Part shown: piece by piece, positions 1 through 64,000 of the stretch | Numbering within the stretch: the first letter of the stretch is position 1 | Layout of the letters: each line of letters opens with the position of its first letter | NCBI RefSeq assembly: GCF_964194155.1 | Contig: NC_135883.1 | Coordinates: forward strand, 19,592,001 to 19,656,000 | From: Cetorhinus maximus | Taxonomy: Eukaryota | DNA: 64,000 nucleotides | Reading direction: 5' to 3' | Made by a program: the position numbers and the translations under genes | Notes under the pieces: generated by a model | Databases searched by the model: none | What the model was told of the DNA's origin: nothing | What the model saw: the letters and a program-made list of their open reading frames with translations, nothing else

Positions 1-12
1 CTGCTAATCAGT
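1..12 (+). CDS. SMC6: SMC6 exon tail (LLIS)
   Basis: CTG CTA ATC AGT|gtaagt; joins the next exon to give [14 protein letters not shown], compared with vertebrate LLIKNNSVARAVMQ. Confidence 0.8.
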
Positions 13-9000: not shown

Positions 9001-12000
9001 TAACTCACTGCATAAACATGGCTGCGTTGTGTGATTTTTATCAGTAGCCAAAGGGTAATATAGCCAACAGATTATTTAATTGCCCTTCATAGAACAATGA
9101 GTAATATCTTGAGTAACTCTGCACTGGAATTTGTCTCAAACAAACACTTTAACCGTAAACAAATTCTAGCAAGAAACTAAGTATTTGCCGTTTCATTTCT
9201 AGAGCAACAGCAGGGCTCGTGAAATTATGCAACAGCAAAAACCACCCGTAAACTGTAGAGAAGCCTTTACTGCAGCAGGTGACCAGGTCTTTGTCAACCG
9301 CTATTACTCTTCAGAAACAGACAGGGCAAGATACTTGGGTGGTGATGTGGAATCAGAAATCAGGTTTGTAAATTTCTCTATCAACTATCTTAATATTGCA
9401 ACTTTACCAAAAAAATGCAGGCTGGAGCAGTAAGTCTTTAAAGATATTCTGGGGGTTCAGTCCTGTACATGCTTCACCTTTTCCCCTCCTCCCTCCACAC
9501 CCTGTCACTTTTCTTCCCCCTTCCTTGTCAGTCTTCCCTTCTGTCTTGGTGTATGTTCAAGTATGATTCTGAATCGTTAGGTGATAATGTGCTAATGGTT
9601 GAGAGAGGTTGGCATAACAAATGAAGAAACTAAATTGAATAGGTTGTTCTATAACCTGATATTGATGAAAAGTTTGTAATGCTAGTTTTTCTAAAACATT
9701 AAAGAATAAAGAAGTTAGCAATGTTGTCGTGCAGCATACTAGCATTACAAATTGTAAACTACAGAGAAGTAAAATGCCAGCATATCACCCCGCTGAGATT
9801 TCATCTTGTTTGTCTTGTGAACTAAATTATGCCCTTTTTATGAAAAACTGATCATAATCAACAAAGTTTAAATGATGACATCCTCGAGTGCCATATTAGT
9901 GTTGAATAATAACTCCTGTATGTTCCCTGACTGTTAATTCCAATCCATTTATAATGCCATTCTTTAAGAATATAATATTGCTAAGTAGTTAGAATTCTGT
10001 TGTTTATTCAGTCTTTCGGTTGACTATGAAGTATGCACGTTGTCCAGTAAATATCAATGCAAGGAGTTGGTGCAACTAAATATGCAATTCTACTATGCAG
10101 ATTCACCATTAGGAACAAATCTGCACCCTGGTCTGCTATTTAATGGGTGCCTGCCCATTTGTGCGAGTTCAGAAAAGCATTATTACTAAACGAGGAAATG
10201 TATATTAAGTACTTTTTGTTTTCCAGCAATATAAGCACTTTGGTCAGTATGCTTTTTTTTGTATTACAGTCGGCTGGAAATGGAAGTGAGCAATAAAATG
10301 GCGAAAATATCACATTTTCAACAACGATTGCAGTCAATAGTAGAAGAAATTCAGATAAATGAATCTCAGATGAAATTGAAACAAATGCAAAAGAGGAAAG
10401 TCCAGGTCTGTATTTAAAAATGGGAAAGAAACATGCTTTACTGTATTTTTACATAAAAAGGAAAATAACCTTCCCATATACTTTTTAATTTTTTTTTTGC
10501 TTCAGGAAAATATGACAAAGATAAAGCTAGAAATTACAGACTTGGAAAATGTGGACGAGCCCCAGTCTGTGGATATTTCCACGCTGGTGAGTGCCTTCAT
10601 CTTTTTTGAATTAGTTCATACCTCTTACGTTACAATTTCAAATTGTGCACAAAATAGGCTTTTGAATTTTCTTTTCATGTTATTTTTTTGGTGACTTGTG
10701 ATTGCTTGAAGATAAGTCATTCATACCAGTTTGGATGATAACTGATTCCTTTCTAGTAGACTCAACTTCTCATTTCTTAAAAAAAAAACTAGGAAGAAGA
10801 AGTGCAGGATATCTGGCACAGAATTGAATCTGGCAAGGATAAGTTGGAGCTGGCAAGGAAGGATATGGATGAGCACCGCAAGATAGTGAATGAGGCTGAA
10901 CAAAAGTATAAAGAGATAAAGGAAAAGATCAATTCAATAGCTGAAGGAGCTGATCCAATAAAGGTGCAAATTGATTGTGTAAAGTTTTCCAACTTTTCTT
11001 AGTTTGTTTCAGAATTGCATTATCGTCTTTAAAATGACCTGCATTTCTTCATAATAGGATGACCTAAATAAGATTGACACAGAAGTTGGAAAGTGTAAAC
11101 ATCATAAAAGACATTATGAAGAGAAAAGAAAAGAACACTTGGATGGGATAGGTAAACTGAGAGAGAGCCTGGAAAGTAAAGAAAAAGTTTTGGAGGTATA
11201 TACAAATTTTTCTTTCTACCAGTGATCATCTGATAACGCATCATTATAAGCTTTATAAAGGAAAGTCATAGCGTTGTAGAAATATTAATGTGGAAAATTT
11301 TAACTTATATCCTTAATTGTTTTAAGCACAGTTACTATTGTTATATAGGCAAATTATTTGACTACTTTATCTATTGTTTGACTACAGGTGAATATTTTCA
11401 ATTTTTTTCTGAAAAATATTTTTGGATTATTTTTCAATAAAGTTTTTAAATGATATAATTTTGATAATTCAGTTTTCAAAGAGCACTTAGAAATTTGATG
11501 AGAATAAAGTAATTATCATTAGCCAGTAAAGTGTTTCCCTTACCCCACCAATGTTCCTTTGCTCTTCTCCCTCCTTCCTTGAAGATCTAGAATTTATGCT
11601 AGGGATTAGTTATGTTAGTGCTGTGGTTATTGGTAATTGGGTAAGAGACATTCACGTGTAATATTTGTCTGAGAGTCACAGTTATTTGCCACAAAGCACA
11701 TTGCAGCTGAATCTGACCCTGCCTTTATCATATATTTAAATATTCAGGGTTTGTTTATTATTTTGCCCATCCATTATCCAAGGACTCTGAGGCATATTGT
11801 AGTATTCTTATTACTGAGCTGGTGGAGATCAACAAACTCAGACTGGGGTTTGAAACTGTCACCTTCCTGGTGTGTGTGGCTCATCTACTCATGCAAACTT
11901 GTTGAGCTGTTGGAGGAACTGTTAAAAATAATTTTGGAAAGTAATTTGCATTGAAACAATGTTTTGACACATTTGCAAATCGAGATGGTGCCACAAAACA

Positions 12001-15000
12001 TTCAATTTCAATAGAAGGCCTTCCTTCAGCACCAAGCACATATCCTTTCAGAATACTGGTCTCGGCTCCAGTTGACTGTTTGTGCCTCCTGAACCACAAA
12101 ATTACAACATGCTTGAAAATGTAATTCATATGTCTGTTTTTTATGAACGTTAATAGCTTTTTAGTACAGTTGATTTAGAACATGAGCATTTGCTGGCATT
12201 CAACAAAAAAGCAGATAAAATTCCAGCGATTAATGCTGCATTCTGCTGTTGCAATTGTTTTGTTTAACTGTTGTGAATATGGAACTTGGGGCATAATTGA
12301 AAAGATGATATGCTAATACAGTACCACAATAGTCATTCAGTTAGTGTAAAAGTATGTTGTAATCCAGAGTCCCACAAACTTAAAAATACTTTTCTCAGTA
12401 TCCTGCTTTTTCTTTTATTTCAACTGTTTGTGTCACCTTTGCCCTGATTCTTTGAGGCTGCATTGTTTCACCAGCACACTCCAACCTGATTTAGCCCCAG
12501 CATTCAGAACACTGGTTGGAATGTACGACTCCCTTAACACTCAAATATTTAAATGGTGCTGTCTAGAGTTCTGTTGTTGAATAGGCGATAGCCCAGCATA
12601 GTAGGCATGGAGCCTGAGCCTAGACAGCTCTCTGGAGGGCAAGTTGCCATAGATGTTAAGAGCACAGAAGGAGGCCATTCGGCTCATCAGCTCTTTGTTG
12701 CAGCAATCCAAAACTAATCTTGCTGCCTTGCTTTGTATCAATAGTCTTGAATTATTCACTGCTCCAAATATTTATCCAATTTTCACTTAAAGCAGTAGTC
12801 TTTGCCTCAGCTTATAGTAAATAATTTCATGTTCTTACAACTCTGTTTCAAAACAGAACTGAGCCCCCTTTCATGGCCTCCCTAACCAGAGAAAATAAGC
12901 TTTCCCTATTTGCTATCAAAACTCCTCGTGATTTGAAAAATTTCTGTTTGATCTTCTATTGACCATTTAAATGTCACAACCAAGTGGACACTAGTTGAAT
13001 GGAATATGCTAATAATGTGATGCTGCATTTGCCGTCTTCTGCCGAAATTGTTCAACTGACAAGGGAATTAGGATGGTTCGAACTTGTATGTTAGACTTTC
13101 GTTGTTGGAGCCAGCTGTACAGAGACTTAAATTTACCATCTTGCATGCTCGTACATATGGTAACAGAAATTATACATGGTGCTGCTGCATGAAATACATT
13201 GGTAGTTGGGATGAGATTGTTGTGCCAAGTGCCCTATTTTCCTTTCTCGGCTCCTTATGTTCTTGTTTATCCTAGGAAAATACTGCTAAAGCCAAGCAGA
13301 TTTATGCAGAGCGACTGGAGGTTGTTAGAACTCCCAAAAGCATTGATGTGGAGATCAATCGACTAAGAGAGAGAATCAGCACAGAACAAGAACGCCATGG
13401 GAACAAAGAAGAAATTACAAGGTGCTTACCCTATATGTAATGTGCATAACAAACAATCAATCCCATTGCTATTTTTTTAGTCTTGCAAATAGGAAAAGAA
13501 CATTCATTTCTTGATGCCCCTTGTGGTCTCAGGATATCCGAAAATGCGTACTAGCCAGTCAATTACTTTTGCAGTGTAGCCAATACTATAATTTAGTTTG
13601 CACACAGCAGGATTCCACGAACAATGGGATAGATACCAGATTTTTTAGTTATGTTGATTGGGAGATTGTATATAGAACATGCCCATCTCCCGCGCACCCG
13701 CCCTCACACCTTCCTCTCCCTCCCAGAACCATGATAGGATCCCCCTTGTCCTCACTTATCACCCCACCAGCCTCCGCGTACAAAGGATCATCCACCGCCA
13801 TTTCTGCCAACTCCAGCATGATGCCACTACCAAACACATCTTTCCTTCACCCCCCCAGCGGCTTCCGCAGGGATCATTCCCTCCGGAACACCCTGGTCCA
13901 CTCCTCCGTCACCCCCTACACTTCAACCCCCTCCCACGGCACCTTCCCATGCAACCGCAGAAGGTGCAACACCTGCCTCTTTACTTCCCCCCTCCTCACC
14001 GTCCAAGGGCCCAAACACTCCTTTCAAGTGAAGCAGTGCTTCACTTGCACTTCCCTCAATTTAACCTACTGCATTCGCTGCTCCCAATGTGGTCTCCTCT
14101 ACATTGGAGAGACCAAACGCAGACTAGGTGACCACTTTGCTGAACACCTTTGGTCTGTCTGCAAGCATGACCCAGATCTCCCTGTCGCTTGCCATTTCAA
14201 CACACCACCCTGCTCTCATGCCCACATGTCTGTCCTTGGCCTGCTGCATTGTTCCAGTGAAGCTCAATGCAAACTGGAGGAACAGCACCTCATCTTCCGA
14301 CTAGGCACTTTACAGCCTTCCGGACTGAATATTGAGTTCAACAACTTTAGGTCGTGAACTCTCTCTTCCATCCCCACCCCCTTTCCGATCCCCCTTTTTC
14401 CAATTATAATTTAAAAAAATATATTTTTCTTTTCCCACCTATTTTTTAAAATTTATTTCGACCTATTGTTTTATCTCTGCCTTTTAGCCCATTTCGATCC
14501 CTTCCCCCCCACCCCACCCCCATTAGGGCCATCTGCCACTTGCTTGTCCTGCTTGCTACCCTTAATGTCCCCATTAGCACATTCTTTAGATAATGTCACC
14601 ACCGTCAACACCCCTTTGTCCTTTTGTCTATGACATCTTTGGCAATCTCTTCTTTGCCCCCACCTATCACTGGCCCTCTATCCAGCTCTGACTGTCCCAC
14701 CCCTCTCTACCAGCTTATATTTCACCTCATTTCTCTATCTCCTTAGCTCTGATGAAGAGTCCTACGGACTTGAAACGTCAATTGTGTTCCTCTCCGCAGA
14801 TGCTGTCAGACCTGCTGAGTTTTTCCAGCTATTTTTGTTTTTGTTTCAGATTTCCAGCATCCACAGCATTTTGCTTTTATCTCAAGGATATATTGGTCCT
14901 GATTTTTCTTCTATTACCCTCCAAAAGACCCTGTTTTTTTGGTTAATGTTGCTTGGTTTGACTTTCTAAATGTTAGAAAGCTAAAGATTTGTATTCTCAT

Positions 15001-18000
15001 CCAGTATTCCTCCAAATTCAAAATGTTTTTCAGCCTCTGTCACCCATTGTCAAGGTGCCTTCTCACTAGGTATAAATTCTTGGGCAGCTATGTCAAGTAA
15101 CTTTTCAACATAGCATAAGCTCAGAATCTCAAATATCCTGGCGAATGTTAGATGACATTGGTTTCCTTTTGTAGTTCTATATGGAACATACTCCATGAAA
15201 TTGATATAGTTGAACACATTAGCATTACAATTTCTATATTTTTTGCAGATGATTAAGCTGTAAGGTGCCTTTAGCATAAACATTGGTATAGAGATAAATA
15301 TCTTGTTCATATGTACAATGTTCTGCCACCTCCTTCCCCCCCCACCCCCCCAAATCTGTTTCCCTCAATCTAAAGGTGATGCTTACCCTTTAGATGTTGT
15401 GTCAGCTGTGGCTCATTAATAACACTCGCGCCTCTATGTCAGAAGGTTATGGTCTGAAGTTCCATTCCAGAGACTTGGCACTTCACTGCAATACCGAGCG
15501 AATTCTGCACTTTCGCACGCGTTGTTTTTGGATGAGGCGTTAAATCTAGGCTCCATCTCCCTTCTCAGGTGGACATAAGATTCTGTGGCACAGTTCAAAG
15601 AACAATAATGGAGTTCCCTTCAGTGTCCTGACCAATACTAATTTCTCAAGCGGTGAGAGCAGATTATCTGGCCATTATCTCATTGCTATTTGTCAGACCT
15701 TGCTGTGTGCAAATTGGCTGTTGTATTTCAGACAATACAAGTATTTATGGACATAAGTGCAAAAATTATAGAATTGCATGCCAATTTGATCTTGGTGGCA
15801 ACCTCCTGGGAGAAGTGGTTTGTTAAGAGCTGAGTATCTTCGAAGAGAAAATTGTGGGCAGTTTCCACTGAATTCAGTCAACAAAAGCCGAGGGCCAGAT
15901 TGCATGCTTATTTGTTAGGGACTTGAGAGTCAGAAAATTATTGAAAAATTGCAGTGGGAAAATAATATTTTTTGCAGTAGGTCATGAAATTAAATCAACA
16001 CCAGCATTTCTACGATGCAAAACCAAAATTAATGTTAACAAATATTTACCAATGGATGTTTTGAATCTTAAGATGCAGTGTCTATTCTATTTAAGAGAGC
16101 ATTTTGGCAAATTTGTACATTCATGAATTTACATGTATCACATGCTCTTGTATAGATTGATTTCCAATTTGTATAAGACCCGAGAACAAGCTTGTGTGTT
16201 CTAACTCTTGTTCAAATGAACATGTGTTCTTGAGACTTCATGTTTTGCTTGCATTGATTCAACTTTTCGTTAATTTTTTTTCCATCAGGCAGTACTTTGA
16301 TGTTTTGGAAACATATAAGAATGTCAAAAGCCAGATCAAGAACCTGAAGAAGTTTATGCAGCTGCTTGATAAAATAATGGAGGAAAGGCACAAAGCATAC
16401 AAAATATTTAGGAGGTAACAGATTCATTTAATTTGATCTATTTATTTTGAGTGTCATAACTGTTGGTGCATTTCATTCCTTAATGAAATACCTTTTCACT
16501 TGCGTTAGTCCCGTAAGGCCTGCAGAGTTATACTTGCTCTACTCAGTCATGCTGTAGTTTCCCTCGTCTGAATTGGCAGTTCTGCACAAATTCATTATCT
16601 TTTTGGTGCATAGTGATGGCCTGGGTCTTGGAAAAAACTGAGTACAAAAACTGGATCTTATGTGTGATGCTTGTTACCTGATTATACTTAACAGTATTTA
16701 CTAATTTTGGTCTACAAGCTCAGAGAGGTACAGGGCACAAGACTGGTGTTAAGTAAGTTGATGGGACATTTGAGCAACCTACATTTGACAAAGACTAGTT
16801 TCAGTTGTATTGGATTTAAAACTCAGCCTTTCCAGCATTTGGTCTTAACATTCTGGCAATACACTCCAGGTCTGTCAACATTTGTACAGAGAAACGATGA
16901 GTTAATATTTCATTGTAAACCTGCTATGTATTTCCATGGTTGCTGTTCTTATTTCAGATATTCAACAGTTGAAGTTCTTTTTCCGCTGCTTGGTTTGTCA
17001 TGCTGAAAGTAGAGTATCTGAGCTGAAGTGCTTTAGTTGTTTTGTGTATTTCATATTGATTTCTTGTCTTGATGTGTATTTGGGAGCATATGAACAATAG
17101 GCCTTGCAGCTTCTCAAGTTTGTCCCATCGTTCAGTTAGGTCATGGTTGATCTGTATGTCAACTCCATTTTCCCACATTGGTCATATATCCCCTAATGCT
17201 ACCAAAAATCTGACATTCCTGGAGTCAACTGGGTGGATCACCCCAGGGTTAGCAGCTGCTCTCCCCTATGGGTGCCTGAGGGACCCTGGCTGACTCCTTG
17301 AGAAAGGGCAACTTTGGTTTTATTCACTCGTGGGATGTGGGCGATACTGGCTAGGCCAGCATTTATTGCCTATCCCTAATTGTTGCCCTTGAGAACTGAG
17401 TGGCTTGCTAGGTCATTTCAGAGGGCATTTAAGAGTCAACCACATTACTGTGGGTCTGGTGTCACATGTAGGCCAAACCAGGTGATGATGGCAGTTCTCT
17501 TCTCTCTCCTCCTCTCTCTCTCCCCACCCCGCCCCAAAGGGCATTAGTGAACCAGATGGGTTTTTATGACAATCAACAATAGTTTCATGGTCATCATTAT
17601 TGAATTCAAATTTCACCATCTGCCGTGGTGGGATTCGAACCTCTGAACCCAGAGCATACCCTGGGTATCTGGATTACTCGTCCTGTGACAATACCACTAC
17701 ACCACCAACTCCCCTGTGAGATCAAGCTGTCCTGCACCACACTCGTATTGACACTGTTGGAGGCCAACAATAGCTTCATCAATGGAGTTCAGCCCGCGCA
17801 GCAGTGCAGGACTAATGGCCTAGACCAAGGTCTCCATGGCGGCCGCCATCCTGCCAGTGTTGACCCCAGTGTGTTGGCATGACAGCACGATCACCTCGGA
17901 CTGAATGCAGAGGGACTCCCTCATCGTTCATTGCAATTTGAGGACTGCGGTTGAAATCTCTTCCTAATGTTTCCATCCTTGTTGCAGAGCTCCAGGAACT

Positions 18001-21000
18001 AATTTAGGACCGAGTCTGGAGGCTCGTCATTGGACTCGGACTTAGCAGAATTGCCTCCACAGTCCTTCGAGTGCCGCCGACCTCAGATGCCTCTGCATCC
18101 GCCTGCTGTGAACCAGATTGTGTGCTGTGCTGACCAGATTGTGATCCTGAGCCTGCTCTAGATCTAGGCCCCACCGAGGTGTATGTCTCTGCACTGCTGG
18201 ATGGTGTGGGTGAGCACTGTGACGGGCCTTCAACTGTGCTGTCCTCAGGGTCCTCATCAGAGGTGCTCTTGGGGCTAGAGCCAGGGTCCTGATTGCCTGA
18301 GGGCACCAGGTGCATGGCAGATGTGCCTAGGAGAGAAAGTGGAGATTACCAGTGCATTGGCATCCGAGTAACACACATCACAATGCACTCACAGTAGCGT
18401 TGACAGAGGGATGATCTGGTGCAGGATCCTCAAGTGGTGCTTGCCGCCGACCTCACCAGGAACAGTCAACGCCATCTCCCGCCTGCACGATAGCTCTTCT
18501 CGAAATTATGGAGGACCTTGAGTTCCAGCACATCGCCTCCAGTCTGGGACCTCTCCCTTTTATTGTGTGATCTTGTCCTGCATAAAGACCAATGGAAAGG
18601 GTGTGAGCATTATATATGGCAGGGCAGATGAGAAGGATGGCTGGCATTTGTGAGAAGCTTGTGGAGCCATGGGCGTAATGAGGACAAGATCAAAGGGGAT
18701 GAGTCCATATGAAGATGTGAGTGTGGTGTTGCCCATTGAGCTGGCAGTGAGTAAGATCCCCGTGGATGTGTGATGGCCTTGAGTTGAGAGTGATTAGGTG
18801 GTTGACTTACCGTAGCAGAACGGATGAGATCATTAAACCTCTTTCTGCACTGGATGGCTGACCTCTTCTGGGCAACATTTGCACTGACCACCACTGCCAC
18901 CATCTCCCAAGCTGGATTGATGATATTACTGCACCCCCCTGCAGCCAGAGTGGGAGTAGAAGACATCAAGGCAGACCTCCATGGCGTTGAGCAGATGCTC
19001 AAGTGAGTCATCATTATTAAACCTGGGTGCAGCACTCTTCTTAGGTTTTGGGGCCTCTTCAAGGGAGCTGCCCTGGGTTGCAAGCATTGAAACTGTGCGC
19101 ACTGTGGCTGTTTAAATATGGCGCCCGGAGTGAGAAAGTGGTAAGGTCACATCGGGACAGGCAAACAGGAGGCCGCCCACCAGCAATCCAGTGGGTTTCA
19201 CAAGGATACGTAATTAATGAGGCGGGACGGGGACAATGTGGTGTGAAAACCCGCCATTGCAACTGGTTGGATTTTCACAATCGTTACCGCACAAAGGAAC
19301 CATCACCATAATGATGAAAACGTTTTTTGTGTGGTGAGTGTTTAGGATCCGGAATGCACTGCCTCAGTGTGGTGGAGGAAGATTCAATCCTGATTTTCAA
19401 AAATGAATTGGGTGAGCACTGAAGAGAGAAATTTGTAGGGCTACGGGGGAAAAGGCAGGAAAGTGGGACTAGTTGAGTTGCTTTTGCAGTGAACTGGCAC
19501 AGACATAAGGGCTGAACAGCCTCCTCCTTTGCTGTAACTGTCCTACAATTCTAAGTGTAACAATCTCTATTACTGACTCTGTCAAATTTATTGCTTCTGT
19601 CCCTCAGGAGCATCGTGGATAAAGCTTTGTGAAATTTCCCATTCATCACATTTGAACAAAATTTCATAATGTTAGTGCAGCCCTGCAGCCTACACTTGTG
19701 GCTCTGATCAGTTCCATTTCAGGTAGCACATGTTCCCAACAGCATGTGAAACACCTCATTCTTCAAAGTGTGTTTTTATTTATGAATCCTTTTAATCCCA
19801 CATTAGAGCATTCTTCAAAAACATGTTCTTGTGTTTTCGTATGAAATGTATTGAACCAGTTTATTCATGAGATGGATTCTCAATTAACGTTTAATAGTGT
19901 TTACAAGGTCTGGGAAGATGTGATACAAGTAGGACTGTATAGGACTGACCCACTGTTTCTAGCATTCTGCATGTTGAAAGCAGATCTCCGGTCACTGATT
20001 AATAGTCTAATTTTTCAAGTCTATTATAACTATAATATCCAAGCTTTGACACCATCCCCATGATGCACTGCATATGTTCTGTCTCGAGTATCCTTTCTGT
20101 AAGGCAGTGCCTAGAAATATATGCAGTATATGACTGGCCTAACTATTGCTTTGTCCACATTTGCTCTTTACTTTTGTATTCATTACTAATGTATGTAAAA
20201 CCCAGAATCTCATTTTTTTTCTTTTAATGGCTTTCTCCCCCATCTACAAACTTTTGATTAAAGCATCCATCACCTTCTGCTACCCATCACTTCCACTGTC
20301 TTTGCTGCCAGACAACTTGTCAAGCATCAGTCTTGGATGAGCTGCAATTTCTCCCAGCTAAGTTTTGGAAGATCAAAGCTGTCATCCTCAGCCTCTGCCA
20401 TCAACTCTACATGCTTGATACCAACTCAAGTCCCCACCCCAGCCACTATCTCAGATTAATGCAGACTGCTTAAAAACTTGATGTATTTTACCTTGAACTG
20501 CATATCAAATTTCATATTCTTTGCATTTCAAATGCTGCCTAGTTCCATCTATAAACATTACCTATCTCTTTGCTGCCTCAGTGCACCTGAAATCCTTTTC
20601 CATATCTTTGTCACTTCTAGACTAGATTAATGAAATGCTCTCCTGCCCAGTTTCCAACCTACACCTATCTCTGTAGCCTGAATTCTATCGCTCATGAGTC
20701 CAACTTGCCTGCTATTACTTGTTTTGCTGACTTAGATTCTTCCCAGCACCCCCAATATCTCAAATTTAGAATTTATCATCCTTGTATTTATGGTATTGCG
20801 CCTCTCTTTTCTATAATTTCCTCCAGTTCTGCAACTACCTGTCTCTGGATTATCTGTTCCTTTGCTCTCTAGCGCATCCTCTGCCCCTCACCATTGCTCC
20901 CCACCCAGTTAGGCCGCATACTCTGGAACTCCCTCCCAAACGCCTCCAGCATCCTATTTTCCTTTCAGATACCTTAAAACCCAGCCCTGACCAAACCTTT

Positions 21001-24000
21001 GGTCATCCCTCCTAATTATCACCCATGACTTAATGTTAAACTTTTGACTATGTCTCTACAAAATGCCTTGGGACATTTTCCTACATTTAAAGCTGCTATA
21101 TAAATGCATGATAATGTTGAAAAGCTGTTTCAGACACACATCTAAACATTGTATTTGTACTTGAATCAAGTGGTTCAGCTCCGTTCATTTAACTGCCACA
21201 AAAGGCTGAATAATATTTGAAATAATGCAGCAAGCATGATTCGTGAGTTAAAGTGGTCTACTTACTGTGACAATTGAAGAAATTACTATCAAATTAATTC
21301 TGCAACAACTTCACTGAATTGCAAGGGGGAAAAACAAGACAATTGCTTTGCTTTTGTTATGCTCATGTGCACATATTCACATGAGATGTAAAAATATGAA
21401 ATGATATGACTTTAGAAAATCATGTACTACACTAGATTACTTAAAAATAATCCACTTGGCACATTTATTAAATGTATTCCTGATATATTTCTGTATTAGC
21501 TTTTTTTTAATTGCCTGTCTCATAGACTGTATACAATATTATAGGCTCATGTTTTCATTTATTGTATCTACGGTTCCTTTTGGCTTGATTTTTCATTTCC
21601 CACGTCCCTGTCGCAGCTCCTAAAGGCGATTGCTTGCTGAAACTAAGAGGGTGGAGAAAATGACAGAATCCAGAGATGAATGCCTTGTGGTAGTATGGTG
21701 ATGGCTCCTGCAAAATCCTGATACCATCATATTTTGAAACTTTTAACTAATTCTAGCAATCAGTTAATGTGCTCCTTAAAGGATTGAAGGGCTGCATGTG
21801 TTTTGTGTCTGCTCTATGATGGAAATGTCAGTAACATTTATTTTCAATTTGTGCTTGAATTAAATAGATACATTTCTCTTCGCTGCAAGTATTATTTTGA
21901 TTCTATGCTTTCCCAGCGAGGTTACCATGGGAAAATGAGCTTCGACCATAAGAGTGCAACACTTTCAATTGCAGTGAGTTATTTAAAACTTATTCTGTGG
22001 CTTTTTTAAACAAATATGAAGGAGCTAACTCCACAAATCCAGAGCAAAAGCAGAAATGCAGTGTTCAGAAATATTGAAGGTTACAGTTCGTTTTTAGCTT
22101 TGCAAAATCCTTCAGGATTTTTATCAAGGGATGAACAAACATTGGACAACACTGCGATTAAATTGTGAGCTTATAATTAGAAAGCTGGAAGAATGGAGCA
22201 CTGAATCGCCATCAAAAAAATCTTGAATTAAATTTTATTATTTACTCTTGTGCAGAAAATAGGTTTCACGGATCTGTGGCAAAGATGACTGAGATTTGTG
22301 TGTCAATAGTGTTAGCACCATGTAAGGGAGTTGTCCATCACTCTTCTGATGGAAGAGTTCACTGAAAATGCTTAAAGAGCAAACAATATAACAGAAGAAT
22401 GGAGGCCATAGTGGCCATGTGAATTTGGCTTCACTGGCACCACCTTAACTCAGTGATGAAAGTTTACATGAGGCAACAAGTGTATGCTCAAGCTCCAATC
22501 CGTAAACACAATCTAGGCTGACACTTCAGTACAGTACTAAGACTGTGCTGTAAGTGCGTGTGAAATATTCCATGGTACCAAAAGAAGTGCAGAGGCTTTT
22601 TTCCTGTCCTGGCCTATATTGATCCCTCAATCAACAGCACTAAAATAGGTGAACTATTCATTTTATCCCACTGCGATTGGTGGGACCTTATGTGCAAATT
22701 GCTTGCTGTTAAAACAGTGACTACATTTTAAAAATGCTTCATTGGCTTTGAAGCGCTTTGAGGTGTCCTTAGGACATGAAAGGTGTTACATAAATGCAAG
22801 TACCTGCTTTCACTATTCTTCCTGCTGGTGAAGATTAACTTCTGATTTAAATGAAGTGGCTCTATTAATAAAAGCAAAGTTCTGTTGTTCTTTATTAATA
22901 TGACAATCTCCATTAATGATTCAAGCAGTAGTAAATTTTGTCCCCACATATTTTGTTAGGAACTTTGTGAAGCATCAGCTGTAACCCTTTATGCTTGAGC
23001 CGTAAAAGTAAAATCAAGCTCAGTGTGTAGCACATACTGACATATTGACTAAACCTGTTGCTGTTTTACCGATGGCCCATAAATCTCTAAACAAAGGGGA
23101 GAGTTTTCTCTCCGTCAGGCGGGCCAGTCGGGAGCAGGCACAGAGCCAATAGCCACCCGCGATTGGCTGCGCACCGCCATATTACGTGGGCAGGCCAATT
23201 AAGGTCTGCCCAGCGTGATGTGCACCCGGAAGCGCTCAGTGCTACCTGTACGGGCCGGGGGGGAAGAGTGAGAATCGGAGCCTGTGCTCTTTCACGCATG
23301 CACTGCCTCAGAGAGATTAAGTTTAGAATGAAAAATTTTTTAAATTATTCAGACATGTCCCCTCATGTGACATTGTCACATGAGCTGGAACATGTTTATG
23401 AATTTTCATGAAACATTTTATTGAATTAATAAACCCTTCATGAAACCTCATCCTGCCCGTGGATGAGGTTCCATGAAAAATGTGAAGGCCACCAACCTTT
23501 AATTAGTTGATTAATGGCCTTAACAGGCCTTTGACAGTTCAGCAGTCGCGCAGCTGACACCAGCGCATGCCTGCTGAACTGAAGATCGGAATGACGCGCG
23601 GTGACGTTGGGGGACACACCCGACGTCACCGCGTGTCATTTTACACATCGGCGTGCGGGGCCCGTGCCCACACACCAAAAAGATTCTGCCCAAAGTTTTC
23701 TTTATTAAAACCCTGTCGTTTTCTGCGTCATCTACTTATTAGCAACCTCAAATACATGAATTCACTCCATCAGCTGTAATTTGCACACTGCAAACAGCAA
23801 AGTGATAATAACCAGATAATCTGTTTTTGTGATGTTGATTGAGGGATAAATATTGGCCAGGACATTGGAGAGATAACTCTCCTTTTTATTCTTCAAAATA
23901 GTGCCATGCGACCTTTTACATGTGAGAGGGCAGACGTGGCCCAAATTTAACATCGCTTCTGACACCTCTGGCAATGCAGAACCCCCTCAGTGCTGCACTG

Positions 24001-27000
24001 GAGTGTCAGCTTAGATTGTTGTGCTCATGCCCTGGTGTGGAACTTAAATCCACAACCTTCTGACTTGGGTAAGAGTGCTACCCACTGAGCTACTGGCTGA
24101 CACTATAGATGCAAATTTTAAGTTCATTGGGTCAGAGCAACAGAATGGGCAGTGAAGTCAGTTTTACTTTAATTTGTTTCAACTATCTTGATATGCTTTT
24201 TTTCCCCCTTGTTATTTCTAATTTTGTTTTTCTCTATTTCTTGATGAAAATGTTTTATTTTCCTTTAAAGTCTAAAGTTCTTATCTCTAGTAGAGCTCAG
24301 TCTTTGATTACATATTGGTCTTTACCCAAAGGAAAGTGTGAAAGCTTCAGCTGGAGTTGGCTACTAAATATGTAGTGTACTAGTTTCTTCCAGTCTTCAC
24401 GCAGTCAATATAATGTATTAAAAAACATGTCGGGCTAACTTTTGTCCTCTGGTTCAATTCTTCCTGTTGTTATGAAATTAGTTCCTTGAGTTCCACTAAC
24501 TGTCATTGGGCGTTAAAATAAGTCATTATTTCGTAGTTTTGGACTAATTTTACCCATGTAAATCTATAAAGTTGGGAAGAGAAACCACAGGGCATATAAA
24601 CCCCCCAGTGCCTTAAACTAAGGAATATGATGTGACTTAATATTTAAAAGAGATGAGCTCAAGACAGCAGAGGGCACCAAAGCAACACTGGATACTATAT
24701 TAATTGATGGATTTTTAAAATGTTATTTTGGGAGTTTTTACTTGCTATGAATTATTTCAGGATGATTAATAAAGCAAACTTATGATTTAGCCTGGCATTG
24801 AGAAATTTTAAGTGGGAGGTGTGACAAATGTTTGTTGCGTCGCGTTATGTTACAACTATTTATATTAATATCTTTTTGTTTAAATTTCAGCTGAGCAATG
24901 CATTAAGATTTTGAGGAAAAAATGCCTACTTATAAGATTTTCTTTGTCCATTGCCTTGGGGACATGTAGATAGCTTCCGTCTGCATGTGCATAGCAGATT
25001 TACTAAATGTTTGATTGCCATGGCTATTGACAGGGGTTTTATACCGGAGAAAAATTCCAAACATCCTTTGTTTTGAGCCTGAACTAGTGAAATGACTCAT
25101 CAGACATGAGACCATTGCTTTTCTCCTTTCGTCCACTGGAGTGTAGGAAGTAATTAATGTTGGTTAATAGCCAAAGTGGCTTTTTGGAAGCATAACACAG
25201 GGGGGAAAAAGAAGAAACCACACTGATGGGTACTTGGACTGATTGGCCAGTGTTTACTTTAGAGACTTATGGGTGTCATCCCATAGTTCCATCCTACCGT
25301 TATTAAACCTGATGTTTCTAACCTTAAAAATAAAGGAATGCCATAGATGAATTCTTGGCTTTTTAGTCATTAGGAAGCCTTAACTGAGACAAAGCATGAG
25401 TAAGATAGTTGACAGTGCAAAGTACTGAATGCAGTACAGACCCCAAATGTAAATAGATCTGCAAATATTTCTGCTTTTGAACACTTTTGTAGGGAAGTTG
25501 ACAAAACAAAGGAAGAACAAAAAGTAGCAAATTAAAAATAATCGAGAAAGTTGAGCAGGAGGAAATCATTTTCTTGAAAGTTAAAAGCTTGCCCAACTAC
25601 AAACCATTTCAATAAACTGAGAGCAGCAACACCTAAAAGTCACCTGCTAACATTCTGCATATTTAAGTATTTGCAGCAGTGAAGAAAAAGACCATTGAAA
25701 TGCCACATAACATAATTAATATAATGCATCTGAAAGCCATGCTTTATAATTTTTGTTAGTTGTTTGTGCCGATTTGCATTTTGCTACTATCCTGCAGAGT
25801 TTTAAAAAAAAAACCTGTTAATTGAACAGGGATCCTTGAAATGCCAAGCAAATTGAAGTTTCTTTTGTATGGAAGAGGAATGATACCTTTACGTCAGTTT
25901 CTTTTTCCCAACAAGGGTTATGTTGCTTGGTATACATTTTGAAATCCATTTTGCTATAGATTTGAACTGCTTGCAAGAGTTTGTTTAGTATTAAATTGTT
26001 TTTCCTTCTATTATTTTTGCTGGATTTATTTGTATTTCACTCTATTGAAAATTTCTTACTTATTGAAGGTTCAGCCTGGAGAGGGCGACAAGGCAGCACT
26101 CAGTGACATGCGATCCCTTTCTGGTGGTGAGCGTTCGTTTTCAACTGTGTGTTTCATCCTTTCGCTGTGGGACACCATGGAATCTCCTTTCCGTTGTCTA
26201 GATGAGTTTGATGTTTACATGGTATGTTTATGTTTAGGCTCAGTTAATCTTTCAGCTAATAGAAGTAAAAACGGTGACATTTATTGCAACTTGTAGCTTT
26301 TAACTTGGTCACAATCCAGCCCTAGAGCATGAAAATACTGGAGCTTTTCCATTTCGAGCATGCAGTTATTTTGGGCTGAAACCTTAAATCATTATATTAA
26401 ACTAAATGTACATTTGTAAATTGTATTTGTTAAGTTTATTTTTAAATCTAGTTTGGACATTTTTAATATTATGGTCTCCTGCTAACTATCTGTAATGCTG
26501 ATGTACAGACGTTACTTTAGCTCTAAAACAGCATGTTTTTTTTCTGTAATATATTCATCATCTAGCATTGTTTAAAATATAATGAAGTTAATGGCCTTCT
26601 GGCTAAGTAGGGTGGTATGTTGACACGTTTTAGGTTTTTAAAAAAAAGTTGGTTGCGTTTTCTTCTGCTTCAACGGTGGGTATAAAACCATTGGGGTAAA
26701 GATTGCATCATGTTCAGCCATTAATATTCTATATTATTAACTCTCATTGTGAAATTGCCCATAACTTAGCAGCTTTTTTAAAAAAGAGCAAAATGACTGC
26801 TTGATGAAATTACTTGAGTATCTATAATACAAGCATACAACTAGTATTATATTCCACATGGATAACAGATATTGAGTGGGAACATAACTGACTGATTTTG
26901 GTTGGACTGCATGTGATGTTCCATTTTCACAGCTCTAAGTGCCTGCACTACCAGATTTCCCTGTGTTTGCTTAAATGACAAGTGCCCTGACTATATATCA

Positions 27001-43025: not shown

Positions 43026-43065
<40 letters not shown>

Positions 43066-48367: not shown

Positions 48368-48399
<32 letters not shown>

Positions 48400-53773: not shown

Positions 53774-53930
53774 TAAAAGCAAAAAACTGCGGATGCTGGA
53801 AATCCAAAACAAAAATAAAAATACCTGGAAAAACTCAGCAGGTCTGGCAGCATCTGTGGAGGAACTGTGTCCCTCTCCGCAAATGCTGCCAGACCTGCTG
53901 AGTTTTTCCAGGTATTTTTATTTTTGTTTT
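53774..53930. mobile_element. Penelope pLTR inverted (hairpin) insertion
   Basis: Arms match the 14790-14880 pLTR; flanked by a duplicated tgcatgta. Confidence 0.8.
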
Positions 53931-56232: not shown

Positions 56233-58024
56233 CATGTCTATCTAACTTGCTGGAGTTTTTTGAAAAGGTAACAGAGATGGTTGATAAGGGCAAGGCTGTT
56301 GATGTGGTGTATGTAGGCTTCCAAAGGTATTCAACACAGTGCTACATAACAGTCTTGTGAGGAAAGTTATAGGTCATGGAATAAAAGGGACAGTAGCAAC
56401 GTGGATATAAAATTGGCTGAGGAATAGGAACCAGAGAGTAATGGTTAATGGGTATTTTTCGGGCTGGGAGAAAGTTTGCAGTGGAATTCCCCAGGGGTCA
56501 GTATTGGAACCCTTGCTTTTCCTGAAATATATAAATGATCTAGATCTTGGCGTGCAGGGACAACTTCAAAGTTTGCGGATGACACAAAATTTGGGAGAAT
56601 TGTAAACTGTGAGGAGGACAGTGTAGAACCTCAAAAGGACATTGACACATTGGTGGAGTGGGCAGATAGGTGGCAGATGAAGTTCAATGTGGAGAAGTGT
56701 GAGGTGATACACTTTGGTACAAAAAACATGGAGAGACAGCATGAAATAAATGATACTATTCTAAAGGGTATGCAGGAACAGAGAGACCTGGGTGTATATG
56801 TACATAAGTAATTAAAGGTGGCAGGACAGGTAGAGAGAGCTGTTACTAAAGCACACGGTATTCTAGGTTTCATTAATAGGGGATAGAGTACAAGAGCAGG
56901 GAGGTTATGATGAAATTATCTGCTTAGACCTCAGCTGGAGCATTGTGTACAGTTCTGGGCACCACATTATAGGAAAGATGTGAACGCATTGGAGAGAGTG
57001 CAGAAGAGGTTTACGAGAATGGTTCCAGGGATGAGACACTTCAGTTATGAGGAAAGATTGGAGAAGTTGTGACTGTTTTCCTTGGAGAGAAGGCTAAGAG
57101 GAGACTTGATAGAAGTTTCCAAAATCATGAGGGGTCTGGACAGAGTAGATCGGGAGAAACTGTTCCCGCTCGTAAACGGATCGAGAACCGTAGGGCACAG
57201 TTTTAAAGTATTTTGCAAAATAAGGAAATGTGAGGTGAGAAATAACTTTTTCACACAGCGAGTAGTTAGGGTTTGGAATGCACTGCCTGGTAGTGTGGTG
57301 GAGGCAGGTTCAATTGAAGAGTTCAAGAGGGCATTGGATGATTATTTAAATAGAAACAATGTGCAGGGTTACGGGGAAAAGGCAGGAGATTGGCACTCAG
57401 TTAAAATGCTCAGAGAGCTGGTGCAGACACGATGGGCAGAATGGCCTCCTTCTACACTGTAACAATTCTGTGATTCTGTGAAAACTCAAAATAGGCCTGA
57501 TCGTAAAACCTACCTAATTTGATGCTGAAATTCAACTTATTGATGTAAATCGGCCTTCAATCCAATAACTTGGCAACTTTTCTGCATTTTCAGGGCCTGC
57601 CCTTCACTACGTCTAAATGAGCAAAAGATCTTTGTGAAGGAATTGTACCTACAAAGAAAATGAATATTGGAAGCATAGAAGAATTTAATACAATAGAAGC
57701 CAGCAGGAGAAATGAGAAAACTGCAACCTGTGGTCAAAATGGCAAGAATCCAAATTTACACTGGGTGAACATTTATCACTGATTTAGGTTGGGCTGTCTA
57801 GGTGGGACACTTCTCAGTAGGAAATAAGGAGTAATGCATTGTTTTTACACCCTTCATGGTCTCTGATTTCAGAGCCACCATTGAAAAGGTCTATGTTAGG
57901 AAGTGGAGGAAATCCAAAAGGGGGAAACATTTCTAAATAAAATATAAAAGCAAGAAATCCAGATGTCTTGGCAGATGACATATCTGAATCTATTGAGACC
58001 TGGGTATGGGATGATATGAGCTAC

Positions 58025-59205: not shown

Positions 59206-60429
59206 TGCATGAAGGTGCATGAAAAGTGCACCATTTTTCGTATTGATGGATTTAATTAAATTCTGAATTTTTTTGTATTGTGTTGATGCTAAATAACTTC
59301 TGATTGATTGCATCAGCAGTGCAGTAATACATGCTGTAATTTACTGTGTTGTATGCTTCAGATATGTGAGAATGGCGGATCTGAACACCATCTTGCAAGA
59401 TAGAAGCAAAAGTAGGCCATTTGGCCCCACTTGTGCAAACCCTGCCTATTATATATTTGTACTGTCAGCCTGATTGGTATTTCTACCTGTTCTTTATGTT
59501 ATCCATTCATCTATTCCATGATCTTCCTATTGGTTTGTATATACATTTCAAATACAATGGATGTGTAGCTTAAAAAAAGCTACACAGAACTTGTCATTGA
59601 GGGGAAGAACATTTTCCAATAGGCCCCTGTACGTAAAGTTACAGCAGCTGGCAGTACTTAACAAAGTTTGGAGGTTTTTCAGTCTAGCTCTGTGCTTAAT
59701 GACAGTGATTTTCAGAATGTTATTCTAAACTTGATGTTCGTTGTTTGGATGATAGAAAATGAAGAAATATTTTAACAGAGAAATCTCTGTTCGAACGTGT
59801 TGGTATTATGGCAACTTCATGGAGTAATAGTATTCTCTTATTTACTTATGTATACTCATGGATTCATCTAATATAAGTTTCTCTGTTTCAGAATGCAAGT
59901 CAATTGGGAATCATTGAAAGTATTTCATTGAAAATCTTCATGGGCCATGCTTGCCTTGGACCAATTACATTTGGGCCCCATTCGAACTTTGTGACTGGAA
60001 ATAATGGTAGTAAGTGTAAAAGTCTTTTAAAATGATCAGCTTCTCTTATAGATGCGGTCCTGTGATGTTTTTCCTTTCAGCTATTGATGCAATAAGTTGC
60101 ATCTTCACACAGGCAGTTTTGATCTGTAAACCTAGGGTTGTAAATTTTGATAGGATCTATGTAGTGAATTTTATGCTGTGCCGTTTCCTAATTGTATGTT
60201 AAGCACTTTCTGCATAAGGTTCACTTGCTATTTGTGATAATTTTAAGGTTATGCCAATCTGTCGTGTTTTGCTTACGTAAAGGCATTTTTTTCCCAGACT
60301 GTTCAGTAATTGATATTTTTAATTGAATTTCTTTTTATTCTATTCAGGGGATTCTGGCGTCACCAACAATGAGAGCATTTATTGCCTCTCCACCATTGGC
60401 CTTGAGAAGGTGGTGGTGAGCTGCCTTTT

Positions 60430-60870
60430 AGAAAGATTTGCATTTACATGGAACTTTGAATGAGCACCAGACATCTCAAAGTGCTTTTTGGCAAACTAAG
60501 TACTTTTGAAGTGTAGTCACTGTTGTAAATGTAGGAAATGCGCAGCCAACATGCACTCAGCAAACTCTCACGTGCTGCAATGCAATAATGACCAGATAAC
60601 ATGATTTTTGTGATGTTGACTGAGGGACGAATATTGGCCAAGACACCAAGGATATCCCCCCAACTCTTCTTCTAAATAGTACCACGGGATCTTTTGCATT
60701 CCCCCAAGAAGGCAAATGGGCCTTGTTTAACATCTCATCTGAAAGATGGCACCTCTGACAGTGCAGTACCCCCTCATTACTGCACTGGAGTGTCAGCCTT
60801 GGAGCAGAACTTGAACGCAGAACTTTGTGATTCAGAGGTGAGAGTGTTATCCACTGAGCTGTGGCGGACA
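60430..60870 (-). mobile_element. Full-length Deu-SINE nested in a LINE-B tail (~60335-61180)
   Basis: Head, core and tail all visible on the minus strand. Confidence 0.8.
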
Positions 60871-60974
60871 TGGCGAAATGCCTCCTGCAGTTCGTGTGTT
60901 GAAAAAACTTGTAATGCTGATAGCGAGGGAGTTCCAGGATTTTGACCAAGCGACATTGAAGGAACAGTAATATA

Positions 60975-61103
60975 AGCCGGGATTTTCTGGCCCTGTTGTG
61001 GGTGGGACCTGCCGTGGGCGAGGCAGCGCCCCAGCCAGAAGCCCGTTGACTTGCGGTGGGATCGGAAGATCGCGGCGGCGGGAGGGTGCGGAAAATCCCG
61101 CTG
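60975..61103. mobile_element. Small GC-rich MITE
   Basis: TIR cgggattttc / gaaaatcccg; TSD ATA; host LINE rejoins. Confidence 0.7.
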
Positions 61104-64000
61104 ATAGTTCCAAGTCAGGATGGTGTGTGAATTGGAGGCAAACTTGCAGGTGGTGGTGTTCCAATGAGTTTGCTTCCCTGCATTCAGCCCTCAATTCACA
61201 AATTTTGTTGACCAGATGATTCCTTCTATAAGTCAGGCTACTTATTTCTTTTGAGTTGTTGTTTTATAAGACCTATGGAATAACACACTGAAACCTCTGC
61301 TGGCCTTTCCTCCCCTACCTATATCAAATGTAACTGTAACTCTTCCAAACTACCCCAGAAAACCAGCCGGGTTATCAGTTGCGATGAATTGAAAGTCAAA
61401 CGTTCGAACATTATAACAATTTTAATGTTGAACATAACCACATTAAAGTGCATTCTTCTGTATTCTGCACAATTTCCCTCTTGCCCAAGTCATATAGAGA
61501 ATCAAGTAGTTCTCCGGAAATATCTGGCTTTCCGATGCGCATTAAATATTTTTGTAGTACAATTTAAAGAAGAACATGACATTCTTCTTGCTAGTTGACC
61601 AATATTCTTCCCTCACATATCATCGCAAAAAAGATGAACTGGCCATTCATATCATTTCTAATTGTGGCACCTAGCATGCAAAATAGCTATTGCATTCACC
61701 TATAAAATAACAGTGACTGTACTTCAAAGTAATTAGTTATGTGGGATGATGTGGATCATTTCTGAGATACGATGAGAGGCAAATTTCAAAAAGAAATTTT
61801 CACTTGATCAAGCCTCAGATTCCATTATCCAACTCTGGCCAGCTGCTTTCTACAAAGTTAACTCTGCAAATGTTGGAAATACGCAGCTGTTGACCTTCTG
61901 ATGCTGATGGTCTTGTCATGTATTTCAAGCCTTATTTTATTTCAGATGTAAGGGAAAATTTGCATGGCTATGGAGGAAAAAAACCAAGGAATTGGACTAA
62001 TACTAATTGGATATCTCCTTTCAAAAGAGCTGACACTGGCTATGGCCTGAATGGCCTCCTTCTGTGCTGTATCATTCTACAATTCTGTTACTATGGTATG
62101 CTTCAAGCGTCCGCTAACACTCATTTGCATAATCACAAGTATAAAATCTTCCATGAGCCAGACCAATTGACAGCCTAATAGAACATAAGCATTTTCCCGT
62201 TCCATTAAAACGTATTCCTTGATGTATTTGAGTGAAAACCACAGTTTTATTAATACAGCTGAAAATGGGTTCATCACCACAAAGAAGCAATGTTAGGAAG
62301 GGTGTCCGTGTCCTCAACCTGTGAGTAATCTGATTTACAATCACTGAAAATGACTTTAAAAAAAGCTATTCTGAACCACTTAGCAGGCACATTTTTGTAC
62401 ACTTGTCAGTTCCATAGTAAATTAAACTTTTCTTGACCTTACAAAGCGTTTAAAATATGAGTACTTGTGCCTATGCACCTAGGAATATGAGCACAATTTG
62501 TAGAGCCTTCCTGAATCAGTGCATTTGGTGGAATCTCATGATTTCGATCGGGGGCGGTTGGGGGGTGGTGGTGCATGGCCAGTTTTGTGAGAGAGGGGCC
62601 TTATTCAGGAAATTTGTATCTTGAGCCAGCATAAAAGATCACGGAAACCACGAACATAAGTGGTTTTGTGTGCAACTCACTTATATTTAAAGCTCTGCCA
62701 TCTTCTGTGTTGGTTTAACTGATTACACCTGAATTGTGCTGATGTGAAAACTCTATCCCAGTGACTTCTTGTTTTCACCTGGCTCCAGGTGGAAAGAGTG
62801 CCTTACTGACTGCTCTTATAATCGGGCTTGGTGGGAAAGCTACTGCCACAAACAGAGAGGATATCCCACAAAAGAATTTGCGAGAAATGGTCTAAAGTCA
62901 GATGCTTTGATAATATATTTTCCTTCCTTCCTTTTAATGAATTTCTTGTAAATTAAATATGGAAATTGGTAAATGAAACATTTTAATATCTATCTTAGAG
63001 AAATAAATGGGACAAAATGTGTTCCTAATCAAAAAGAAAGTGATCACACGTCTGTAGCATGGTTAAATATGAGTCCTTGATTTGTACATTTTCCCAAACT
63101 ATACTCTGCAAGGTCGAGTTGACCTTAGCAGCAGTCTGTACCTGAGACATAGACAAGAACAAGGAGGCATTGGGGTCGAGTTTTGTAGTGATTTTAATCG
63201 TTCGAAAGATTGACCGCAACCAATGTGGTGGGATGTTGAATTAAATCAGTGTTTAAAATATATCAAAGTTTGGGATATAGCACATGACTTATACAGCAAA
63301 AACATACCACCATGACAAGTAGACAGTACTGGTCTAGGTTGGGCAGGATGCCTGGCATGCACAAACAGCTCTTTCTTCTTCTTTCTCTTTTGTTCTTGGT
63401 GCTTATGTCTTTGCAACTTCTCAAACTACCCGAGAGTGTTAGCATGGATCTACTCTTTGGAGTTTCTCCCCACTGCCTACCGCACCGAGGCCTCTCAAAG
63501 TCCCTTACTTTATACCCTTTTCATATGGATGGATTATTTCCAAGGCCTTTTCACCCTATTAAGATATATTTTATAATGCAATACCCTATAAAATGTCAAG
63601 CTCTTTGTCTAAACGTTAGGTTGAAAAGTCTGCTTTTAATGCCATTCGCCTGCCGTTAGCTTTTGAGCTTTCCCACATATCTTCTGCCCTTGATCAATCA
63701 AGCCTAGGCCTTACATCATCGTTTCTTTATCACACCCTAGGTTGTTCTGCCTGACCAGTTTCATCTTGCCAAGAAACATTCCGCCTCCGACCTTCAAAGC
63801 TAACTTTCAGAAGTTTTGTTACTTTGTACCTATCCTATCACCATTTATTTATGGCCAAAGCCATTCATAAGGCCTTCTAATGAGTTGATTCTTTTTTTAT
63901 ATATCAAACTGAACCATGGAATTGTTCAATTATGCAACTTCTGTTCTACTTCTACACACTAATAAACTAGTGTTCCATTAGAGCCCTAATTAAGCAAGAT

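What the first reader, a model, noticed from the sequence alone, without database searches (positions are those of the whole stretch)
59892..62896. Hidden second SMC6-like gene in tandem, ~25 kb downstream of the intact SMC6
Seen: two short exons, not resolved by the ORF track, with canonical splice sites and matching phase (ggt a|gt gga). They splice to [54 protein letters not shown], the SMC6 head with Walker A. Known: SMC6 is single-copy in mammals, and SMC5/6 acts in DNA repair and restricts episomal viral DNA (the HBV HBx target). Inference: this is a head-to-tail duplicate. Changes at conserved sites (KNFMCH>KIFMGH, NVNF>HSNF) suggest an old divergent paralog rather than an assembly duplication. 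I recall extra smc6 copies in some amphibians and fish, so it may be an ancient vertebrate paralog.
Basis: partly seen in the sequence, partly recalled or inferred. Interest (0 to 1): 0.8.

Follow-up and report, generated by a model that had tools for sequence, protein, structure and literature searches.

The report
Dead second SMC6 gene of sharks
This is the broken remnant of an old second copy of the DNA-repair gene SMC6 that several other sharks still carry with an open reading frame; that copy has drifted far from the original except in two hinge exons, which the two genes keep copying from each other.

Summary
The two exons are real. They are coding exons 2-3 of a head-to-tail second SMC6 gene (SMC6b) in the order GEN1 - SMC6a - SMC6b - VSNL1. 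It is not an assembly duplicate: synonymous sites differ at 46% outside the hinge. Here it is a pseudogene. Only 19 of 26 exons remain, and the C-terminal ATPase half is gone. Open SMC6b proteins exist in 7 other shark species, auto-labelled 'SMC6-like'. Trees place the duplication inside cartilaginous fishes, before the shark-ray split, not in a vertebrate ancestor. SMC6b evolves 3-5 times faster than SMC6a and keeps the ATPase motifs. Unexpectedly, hinge exons 14 and 16 group by species rather than by paralog (14 vs 4 columns; the other exons, 15 excluded, 9 vs 340), and their synonymous difference is 12%. This points to recurrent, exon-limited gene conversion, plausibly because both copies must pair with one SMC5. 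I found no paper on it in a partial library. Expression and function of intact SMC6b are untested.

The parts
1..12 (+). SMC6a (intact copy), 3' end of coding exon 15; exons 1-14 and the ATG lie up to 37.2 kb before the window
   Evidence: 26 coding exons splice to P0003 exactly (1104 aa)
9203..9363 (+). SMC6a coding exon 16 (hinge, human SMC6 617-668); one of the two exons exchanged with SMC6b by gene conversion
10270..21973 (+). SMC6a coding exons 17-23 (10270-10405, 10506-10586, 10793-10963, 11058-11195, 13276-13421, 16289-16414, 21868-21973): return coiled coil and neck
26069..26221 (+). SMC6a coding exon 24 (LSGGE signature and LDEFD Walker B; motif names recalled); the only copy found in the genome
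28640..34214 (+). SMC6a coding exons 25 (28640-28737) and 26 (34103-34214, with stop)
57609..57764 (+). SMC6b pseudogene coding exon 1: ACG in place of ATG (57609), TGA at codon 4 (57618)
   Evidence: 67-69% identical to P0001/P0002, 35-39% for the same exon of SMC6a
59892..60009 (+).
62789..62896 (+).
62897..64000 (+). SMC6b intron 3. The pseudogene continues beyond the window to position 172478 in window numbering (exons 4, 5, 7-10, 12-21); VSNL1 last exon follows on the - strand near 192200

Best explanation
SMC6 was tandemly duplicated early in cartilaginous fishes, before sharks and rays split and close to the chimaera split. Shown: the second copy (SMC6b) still encodes a near full-length protein with its ATPase motifs in sawshark, cloudy catshark and five carpet sharks, and evolves 3-5 times faster than SMC6a. 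Shown: in this genome it is dead; the loss probably predates the split from two close relatives. Shown: hinge exons 14 and 16 have been homogenised between the two copies separately in several lineages, including at synonymous sites and in flanking intron. Inferred mechanism: where intact, SMC6b is an alternative subunit that pairs with the one SMC5 through the hinge to give a second kind of SMC5/6 complex. Ectopic gene conversion between the neighbours is tolerated or favoured in the two exons that carry the SMC5-pairing edges and purged elsewhere, where SMC6b has its own arms, neck and head surface (about 55% likely). What the second complex is for is a guess: a tissue-restricted, probably germ-line role (about 35%) or a role against foreign circular DNA (about 20%). 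The stretch in this window does nothing as a protein gene.
For: Pseudogene: 7 stops in the SMC6a frame; frameshifts in exons 3, 4, 7, 10, 16, 19 and a disrupted exon-15 end; 7 broken splice sites among the 19 exons found. Exons 6, 11 and 22-26 score no better than shuffles, while control exons 5 and 18 score 70 and 86 against shuffled maxima of 33 and 30. Exon 24 has 1 strong match in the genome. 23 of 193 otherwise invariant residues changed, against 9 of 202 and 6 of 199 in open SMC6b proteins. A short-read contig of run X4 matches L041:1594-2800 with 1 difference and no gap. Orthology and age: the pseudogene is sister to catshark SMC6b (94/89) in a 100/100 clade; duplication after the shark-ray split rejected (AU p=1.3e-4); chondrichthyan clade 100/100 with lamprey and invertebrate outgroups. 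Tandem order elsewhere: locus tags chiPu_0006608/6609 on one scaffold; A and B share contig length in 6 species. Conversion: pS 9/76 in exons 14+16 vs 183/397 in 16 other exons, Fisher p=4e-9; intron flanks align for 120-200 nt. By-species vs by-paralog columns 14:4 vs 9:340, p=3e-16; on these exons A and B pair within catshark (98/91) and sawshark (99/98). The well-conserved head exon 24 still sorts by paralog, 17 to 0. One SMC5 match in this genome. The last Smc6 hinge strands form a dimer interface (PMC5290277, passages and section 7).
Against: No expression or binding data for any SMC6b. Some models look imperfect: the whale-shark model lacks the exon-16 region, the zebra-shark model has an odd N-terminus, and the epaulette-shark signature reads LSGGEH, so SMC6b may be decaying in more lineages. 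No SMC6b protein was listed for rays, chimaera, Heterodontus, Heptranchias, Mustelus, S. canicula or Carcharodon, which needs several losses or annotation gaps. Exon 15, also hinge, mostly sorts by paralog (1:10). In carpet sharks the B copies still group together on exons 14+16 (99/95), so conversion there is older. Quartet columns are not independent of the tree. Shared stops in relatives rest on absent rows in a table with 51 rows hidden. No dN/dS for open SMC6b genes could be computed (proteins only). The mapping of exons 14/16 to the SMC5-pairing strands is inferred, not modelled.
Confidence: 0.8

Rival explanations
1. Same history, but conversion has no functional meaning: exons 14 and 16 stayed similar enough to keep recombining, and the process fed itself neutrally.
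For: These exons are among the most conserved of the gene. Tracts include intron flanks. Exon 15 between them is mostly not converted.
Against: Exon 24 is also well conserved (44 of 51 residues A vs B in two species) yet sorts 17:0 by paralog. The same two exons recur in distant lineages.
Confidence: 0.4
2. SMC6b never gained a distinct role; it is a redundant, slowly decaying copy under relaxed selection, lost many times.
For: Fast rate, death here, not found in many species, imperfect models in some.
Against: Open frames of 1070-1101 aa in 7 species spanning the deepest shark split. Only 3-4.5% of invariant columns changed in two open SMC6b proteins vs 12% in the dead copy. 31 clade-wide replacements at sites invariant in the other rows.
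Confidence: 0.2
3. The locus is a working hidden gene here and the lesions are assembly errors.
For: Exons 2, 8, 9, 12, 14 and 18 are open with normal splice sites.
Against: Substitution stops, splice substitutions and 7 missing exons. A short-read contig reproduces the exon 17-20 lesions (possibly the same individual).
Confidence: 0.02
4. False (haplotype) duplication or a recent species-specific copy.
For: Exon 14 is 95% identical between the copies.
Against: Other exons are 67-82% identical (exon 16, 90%), most introns do not align, AU p=0.0012, and two other species hold the B locus at about 96% identity.
Confidence: 0.01
5. An ancient paralog shared with amphibians and bony fishes.
For: Two X. 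tropicalis proteins (934 of 1121 residues identical) and a very divergent Oryzias javanicus SMC6 exist.
Against: The Xenopus pair are sisters; medaka P0220 plus B rejected (AU p=2e-7); B outside the jawed-vertebrate set rejected (p=0.015). Long branches weaken these tests somewhat.
Confidence: 0.04

Closest known systems
Vertebrate SMC6 (human chain 9lwi_A; SMC5/6 complex)
   Same: Same exon order and phases for 19 exons, same GEN1-VSNL1 neighbourhood (human order recalled); open SMC6b proteins hit Pfam SMC_N and AAA_23 and keep [13 protein letters not shown], LSGGE and LDEFD.
   Different: A second copy kept across deep shark lineages, 3-5 times faster, with replaced neck and head-surface residues; dead in this genome.
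Opossum X-linked Smc6l cluster (PMC9937046, passages read)
   Same: Extra Smc6-like genes in a cluster, one a pseudogene (Smc6l1ps).
   Different: On the X of a marsupial, four copies; not placed in my trees; no hinge conversion mentioned in the passages seen.
Daphnia pulex SMC6A/B (PMC2680839, passages) and Arabidopsis SMC6A/B (PMC5793187, passages)
   Same: Lineage-specific SMC6 pairs beside a single SMC5; the Daphnia pair lies 165 kb apart, perhaps an old tandem duplication.
   Different: Independent events. The Arabidopsis pair is Brassicaceae-specific. No exon-limited conversion in the passages seen.
SMC1B, the meiosis-specific vertebrate SMC1 paralog (mentioned in PMC2680839; details recalled)
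   Same: An SMC paralog that shares its partner SMC with the parent gene: the model for how SMC6b may work.
   Different: SMC1B is kept widely in vertebrates and has a proven role; SMC6b expression is unknown.

Membership tests
SMC6 family (by descent) | Best match and tree position with SMC6 rather than SMC5, SMC1-4 or RAD50 | tested here: met
SMC6 family (by descent) | Conserved exon structure and GEN1/VSNL1 neighbourhood | tested here: met
   19 colinear exons; GEN1-like exons upstream, VSNL1-like exons downstream, named from recalled motifs
Functional SMC6 gene (this genome's copy B) | Open reading frame from start codon through both head halves | tested here: not met
   ACG start, 7 stops, 6 frameshifts, exons 6, 11 and 22-26 not found
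Functional SMC6 gene (SMC6b of other sharks) | Walker A, Q-loop, signature and Walker B motifs in a protein of about 1100 aa | tested here: met
   6 of 6 B rows in alignment A1 (one with LSGGEH); TPQ>TPL/TSL also occurs in invertebrate SMC6
Functional SMC6 gene (SMC6b of other sharks) | Forms a hinge heterodimer with SMC5 and binds the NSE subunits | not tested
Functional SMC6 gene (SMC6b of other sharks) | Expressed and under purifying selection at DNA level | not testable with these tools
   Only protein models were available; protein-level constraint seen
Interlocus gene conversion | Local drop in synonymous distance plus tree switch from paralog to species grouping | tested here: met
   pS 0.118 vs 0.461 (this genome only); columns 14:4 vs 9:340 (proteins of 5 species pairs)
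Pan-vertebrate paralog | Orthologs in bony vertebrates grouping with copy B | tested here: not met

The most novel reading that the evidence does not exclude
Many sharks assemble two distinct SMC5/6 complexes from one SMC5 and two SMC6 subunits, a split kept since early cartilaginous fishes. Selection keeps the SMC5-pairing hinge exons of both SMC6 genes matched through repeated gene conversion, while the arms, neck and head of SMC6b diverged for a separate job (germ line or foreign-DNA silencing). This lineage lost the second complex, giving a natural knockout.
Probability: 0.35. Interest if true: 0.78.

Novelty: new member of a known kind. Interest (0 to 1): 0.52.

Why it matters
SMC5/6 is the least understood SMC complex, and its roles in replication, meiosis and silencing of extrachromosomal DNA are hard to separate because SMC6 is essential. 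A vertebrate paralog that kept the ATPase and an SMC5-matched hinge while changing the rest would be a natural separation-of-function variant, with species that kept it and species that lost it. The exon-limited conversion is a clean case of concerted evolution at a dimer interface and nominates the hinge residues that track SMC5. Practically, databases label both genes 'SMC6-like', so orthology sets can mix them, and hinge exons give wrong trees. The locus in this window itself is a pseudogene.

Tried and rejected
Catalytically dead SMC6b: I considered the clade-wide TPQ>TPL/TSL change, but TPL occurs in 5 of the 14 divergent representatives checked, so it is not a sign of inactivation. Antiviral escape at the LRCKL motif that HBx binds (bioRxiv 10.1101/2025.11.11.685253, passages): the region differs between copies (A LRCKY; B LRCKY, LRCKL or IRCKL), but that paper says HBx is specific to mammalian viruses, so I draw nothing from it. 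AlphaFold model of P0002: mean pLDDT 60.5, pTM 0.31, hinge and heads largely under 50; not used beyond strand order, and no fold search was run. Expression: no RNA holder listed; no evidence either way. Short-protein search with P0121 listed 53 proteins, none named as a shark; weak. Timing against the chimaera split is undecided (AU p=0.24; Callorhinchus moves). No unique homology between the 5' non-coding regions of the two copies beyond exon 1, so B's promoter was not located. Pfam SMC_N over the genome missed SMC6 itself, so it is no copy count. The earlier-findings index returned nothing. Tree rows left out: exons 1 and 14-16 columns; 10 of 30 rows (near-duplicates and two outgroups); 8 of 30; 13 of 35.
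Full report
Observation. Neither has a second match inside the window. A genome search found the partner 34 kb before the window start, at 76% identity. I fetched 120 kb upstream and 280 kb downstream, with no N in the 464 kb. The upstream gene (SMC6a) has 26 coding exons that splice exactly to P0003, 1104 aa, which its source labels Cetorhinus maximus SMC6-like. Recalled motifs place GEN1 head-to-head upstream (start near -55740) and VSNL1 on the minus strand downstream (last exon near 192200).

The second copy is a decayed whole-gene duplicate. 19 of the 26 exons are found in order between 57609 and 172478. Exons 6, 11 and 22-26 score no better than shuffles in their expected intervals, while control exons 5 and 18 stand out. 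Exon 24, with the signature and Walker B motifs, has one strong match in the genome; the other, weak match lies about 48 kb from the SMC5 exon on C2. Lesions: ATG>ACG; 7 stops in the SMC6a frame (exons 1, 5, 10, 19, 20, 21 twice); frameshifts in exons 3, 4, 7, 10, 16 and 19 and a disrupted end of exon 15; acceptors lost at exons 4, 13 and 17; donors lost at 5, 10, 16 and 17. A short-read contig of run X4 covers exons 17-20 with 1 difference and no gap, so those lesions are not assembly errors, though X4 may be the source individual.

It is an old paralog, open in other sharks. Exon 2 as query returned two proteins, from Scyliorhinus torazame and Pristiophorus japonicus. The wider search (best 120 of 1517 listed) and cluster look-ups gave SMC6b models in 7 species: those two, Chiloscyllium punctatum, C. 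plagiosum, Hemiscyllium ocellatum, Stegostoma tigrinum and Rhincodon typus. In 6 of the 7, A and B share a contig length, and C. punctatum has adjacent locus tags. Without exons 1 and 14-16, B is a 100/100 clade, the pseudogene is sister to catshark B (94/89), and ray SMC6 groups with shark A (100/99). AU tests reject a duplication after the shark-ray split (p=1.3e-4) and a species-level one (p=0.0012), and leave the chimaera question open (p=0.24). With lamprey and three invertebrate outgroups (named), chimaera, A and B form a 100/100 clade; B outside the jawed-vertebrate set is rejected (p=0.015), as is B with the divergent medaka protein (p=2e-7). These used LG+G4 and long branches are present; the mixture-model quick tree on full-length rows gave the same A and B clades. 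From the basal chondrichthyan node, B paths are 0.35-0.64 changes per column against 0.10-0.13 for A in the same species. Recalled dates put the shark-ray split near 300 and the chimaera split near 400 million years ago.

Age of the loss. 23 of 193 residues invariant in all open sequences have changed, about 5% per base (3.4-7.9%), an upper estimate since open B proteins show 3-4.5% of such columns changed in the same test. Two other species (organisms B and C) hold the locus at about 96% identity. Their contigs' gap letters sum to 12+6+1+23, leaving no room for the 12 nt missing from exon 20, so that deletion is shared. They show no row at the exon-17 splice lesions or at the stops in exons 19 and 20, but 51 rows are hidden, so sharing is probable, not proven. 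They lack the exon-19 insertion and have their own 12-nt deletion in exon 18. The gene most likely died before these three species split. No Carcharodon SMC6b protein was listed, which fits but is weak.

The unexpected part is the hinge. Exon 14 (human 510-575) and exon 16 (617-668) are 95% and 90% identical between the copies; the rest are 67-82%. Synonymous difference is 9 of 76 sites there against 183 of 397 in 16 other exons (p=4e-9; exon 15 left out, pS 0.14), and the downstream introns align for 120-200 nt. Across five species pairs, informative columns in exons 14+16 group by species 14 to 4; in the other exons, exon 15 excluded, 9 to 340. On these 122 columns catshark A pairs with catshark B, sawshark A with sawshark B, and the pseudogene with its own and the Carcharodon A (94/90). 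Protein constraint alone cannot explain this, since synonymous sites are affected and the conserved exon 24 sorts by paralog 17 to 0. Chimeric gene models are unlikely: A and B differ in these exons in each species, and both copies exist physically here. This is recurrent interlocus conversion. Against a simple 'whole hinge' story, exon 15 mostly keeps B-specific residues (1:10).

How it most likely works. Shown: sequence, lesions, tree, conversion, retained ATPase motifs in 6 of 6 aligned B proteins, 31 clade-wide replacements at otherwise invariant sites, one SMC5 match here. From the literature: SMC5 and SMC6 dimerise through two hinge interfaces, and the last Smc6 hinge strands form one of them (PMC5290277, passages and section 7). 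Inferred: exons 14 and 16 carry the strands at the two edges, SMC6b pairs with the same SMC5, and conversion is kept only there (about 55%, against neutral self-reinforcing conversion at about 40%). Guessed: a germ-line-biased role by analogy with SMC1B (35%), or a foreign-DNA role, given signs of adaptive evolution in primate SMC6 (bioRxiv 10.1101/202671, passages) (20%).

What is known. SMC6 duplicates are described in opossum (PMC9937046), Daphnia (PMC2680839) and Brassicaceae (PMC5793187); I read passages only. The shark paralog is in RefSeq and UniRef under the automatic name 'SMC6-like'. Searches for a description found none: smc6+chondrichthyan 0 papers, smc6+'cartilaginous fish' 0, smc6+duplication+shark 6 listed with none on this by title, abstract start or, for one, passages; the listings showed none. 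Most subscription journals are missing from the library, and I opened no supplements; gene-family tables of shark genome papers could list the duplication.

Verdict. A real, old SMC6 paralog of cartilaginous fishes, dead in this genome, with a clear signal of exon-limited gene conversion. It is a new member of a known kind.

Noticed in passing
SMC6a coding exon 5, 32634 bases before the window (L003): The intron after it begins with GC rather than GT; in the pseudogene the site reads TC.
   Followed up: partly
window 42960-48900: Long degenerate (CT/CA)-type arrays, period about 22, 162 copies at 45063-48664, giving spurious 700-1288 aa H/T/L/S frames; a G-rich 26-mer array at 50226-50642.
   Followed up: partly
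window 54065-55606 +: LINE fragment: endonuclease (PF14529) and weak reverse-transcriptase (PF00078) hits, between the two SMC6 copies.
   Followed up: partly
window 36910-39025 +: Broken frames that look like gag/pol pieces of an LTR retrotransposon (recalled resemblance; no Pfam hit).
   Followed up: no
window 13515-14357 +: 280-aa open frame just inside SMC6a intron 21 resembling a Penelope-type GIY-YIG endonuclease end (recalled; no Pfam hit).
   Followed up: no
window 53774-53935: Inverted repeat of about 125 nt at 90% (53806-53930) with many copies upstream of SMC6a, MITE-like.
   Followed up: no
P0220 (Oryzias javanicus): A very divergent SMC6 (45% to P0003, branch about 1.0) that does not join SMC6b; possibly an independent fast-evolving teleost paralog.
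   Followed up: partly
   Followed up: partly
P0014, P0013, P0145: Whale-shark SMC6b model lacks the exon-16 region, zebra-shark model has an odd N-terminus and an insert after Walker A's first half, epaulette-shark signature reads LSGGEH; annotation errors or early decay.
   Followed up: no
G000:C2:179056607-179105034 -: SMC5 gene; its Walker A exon has one match in the genome.
   Followed up: partly
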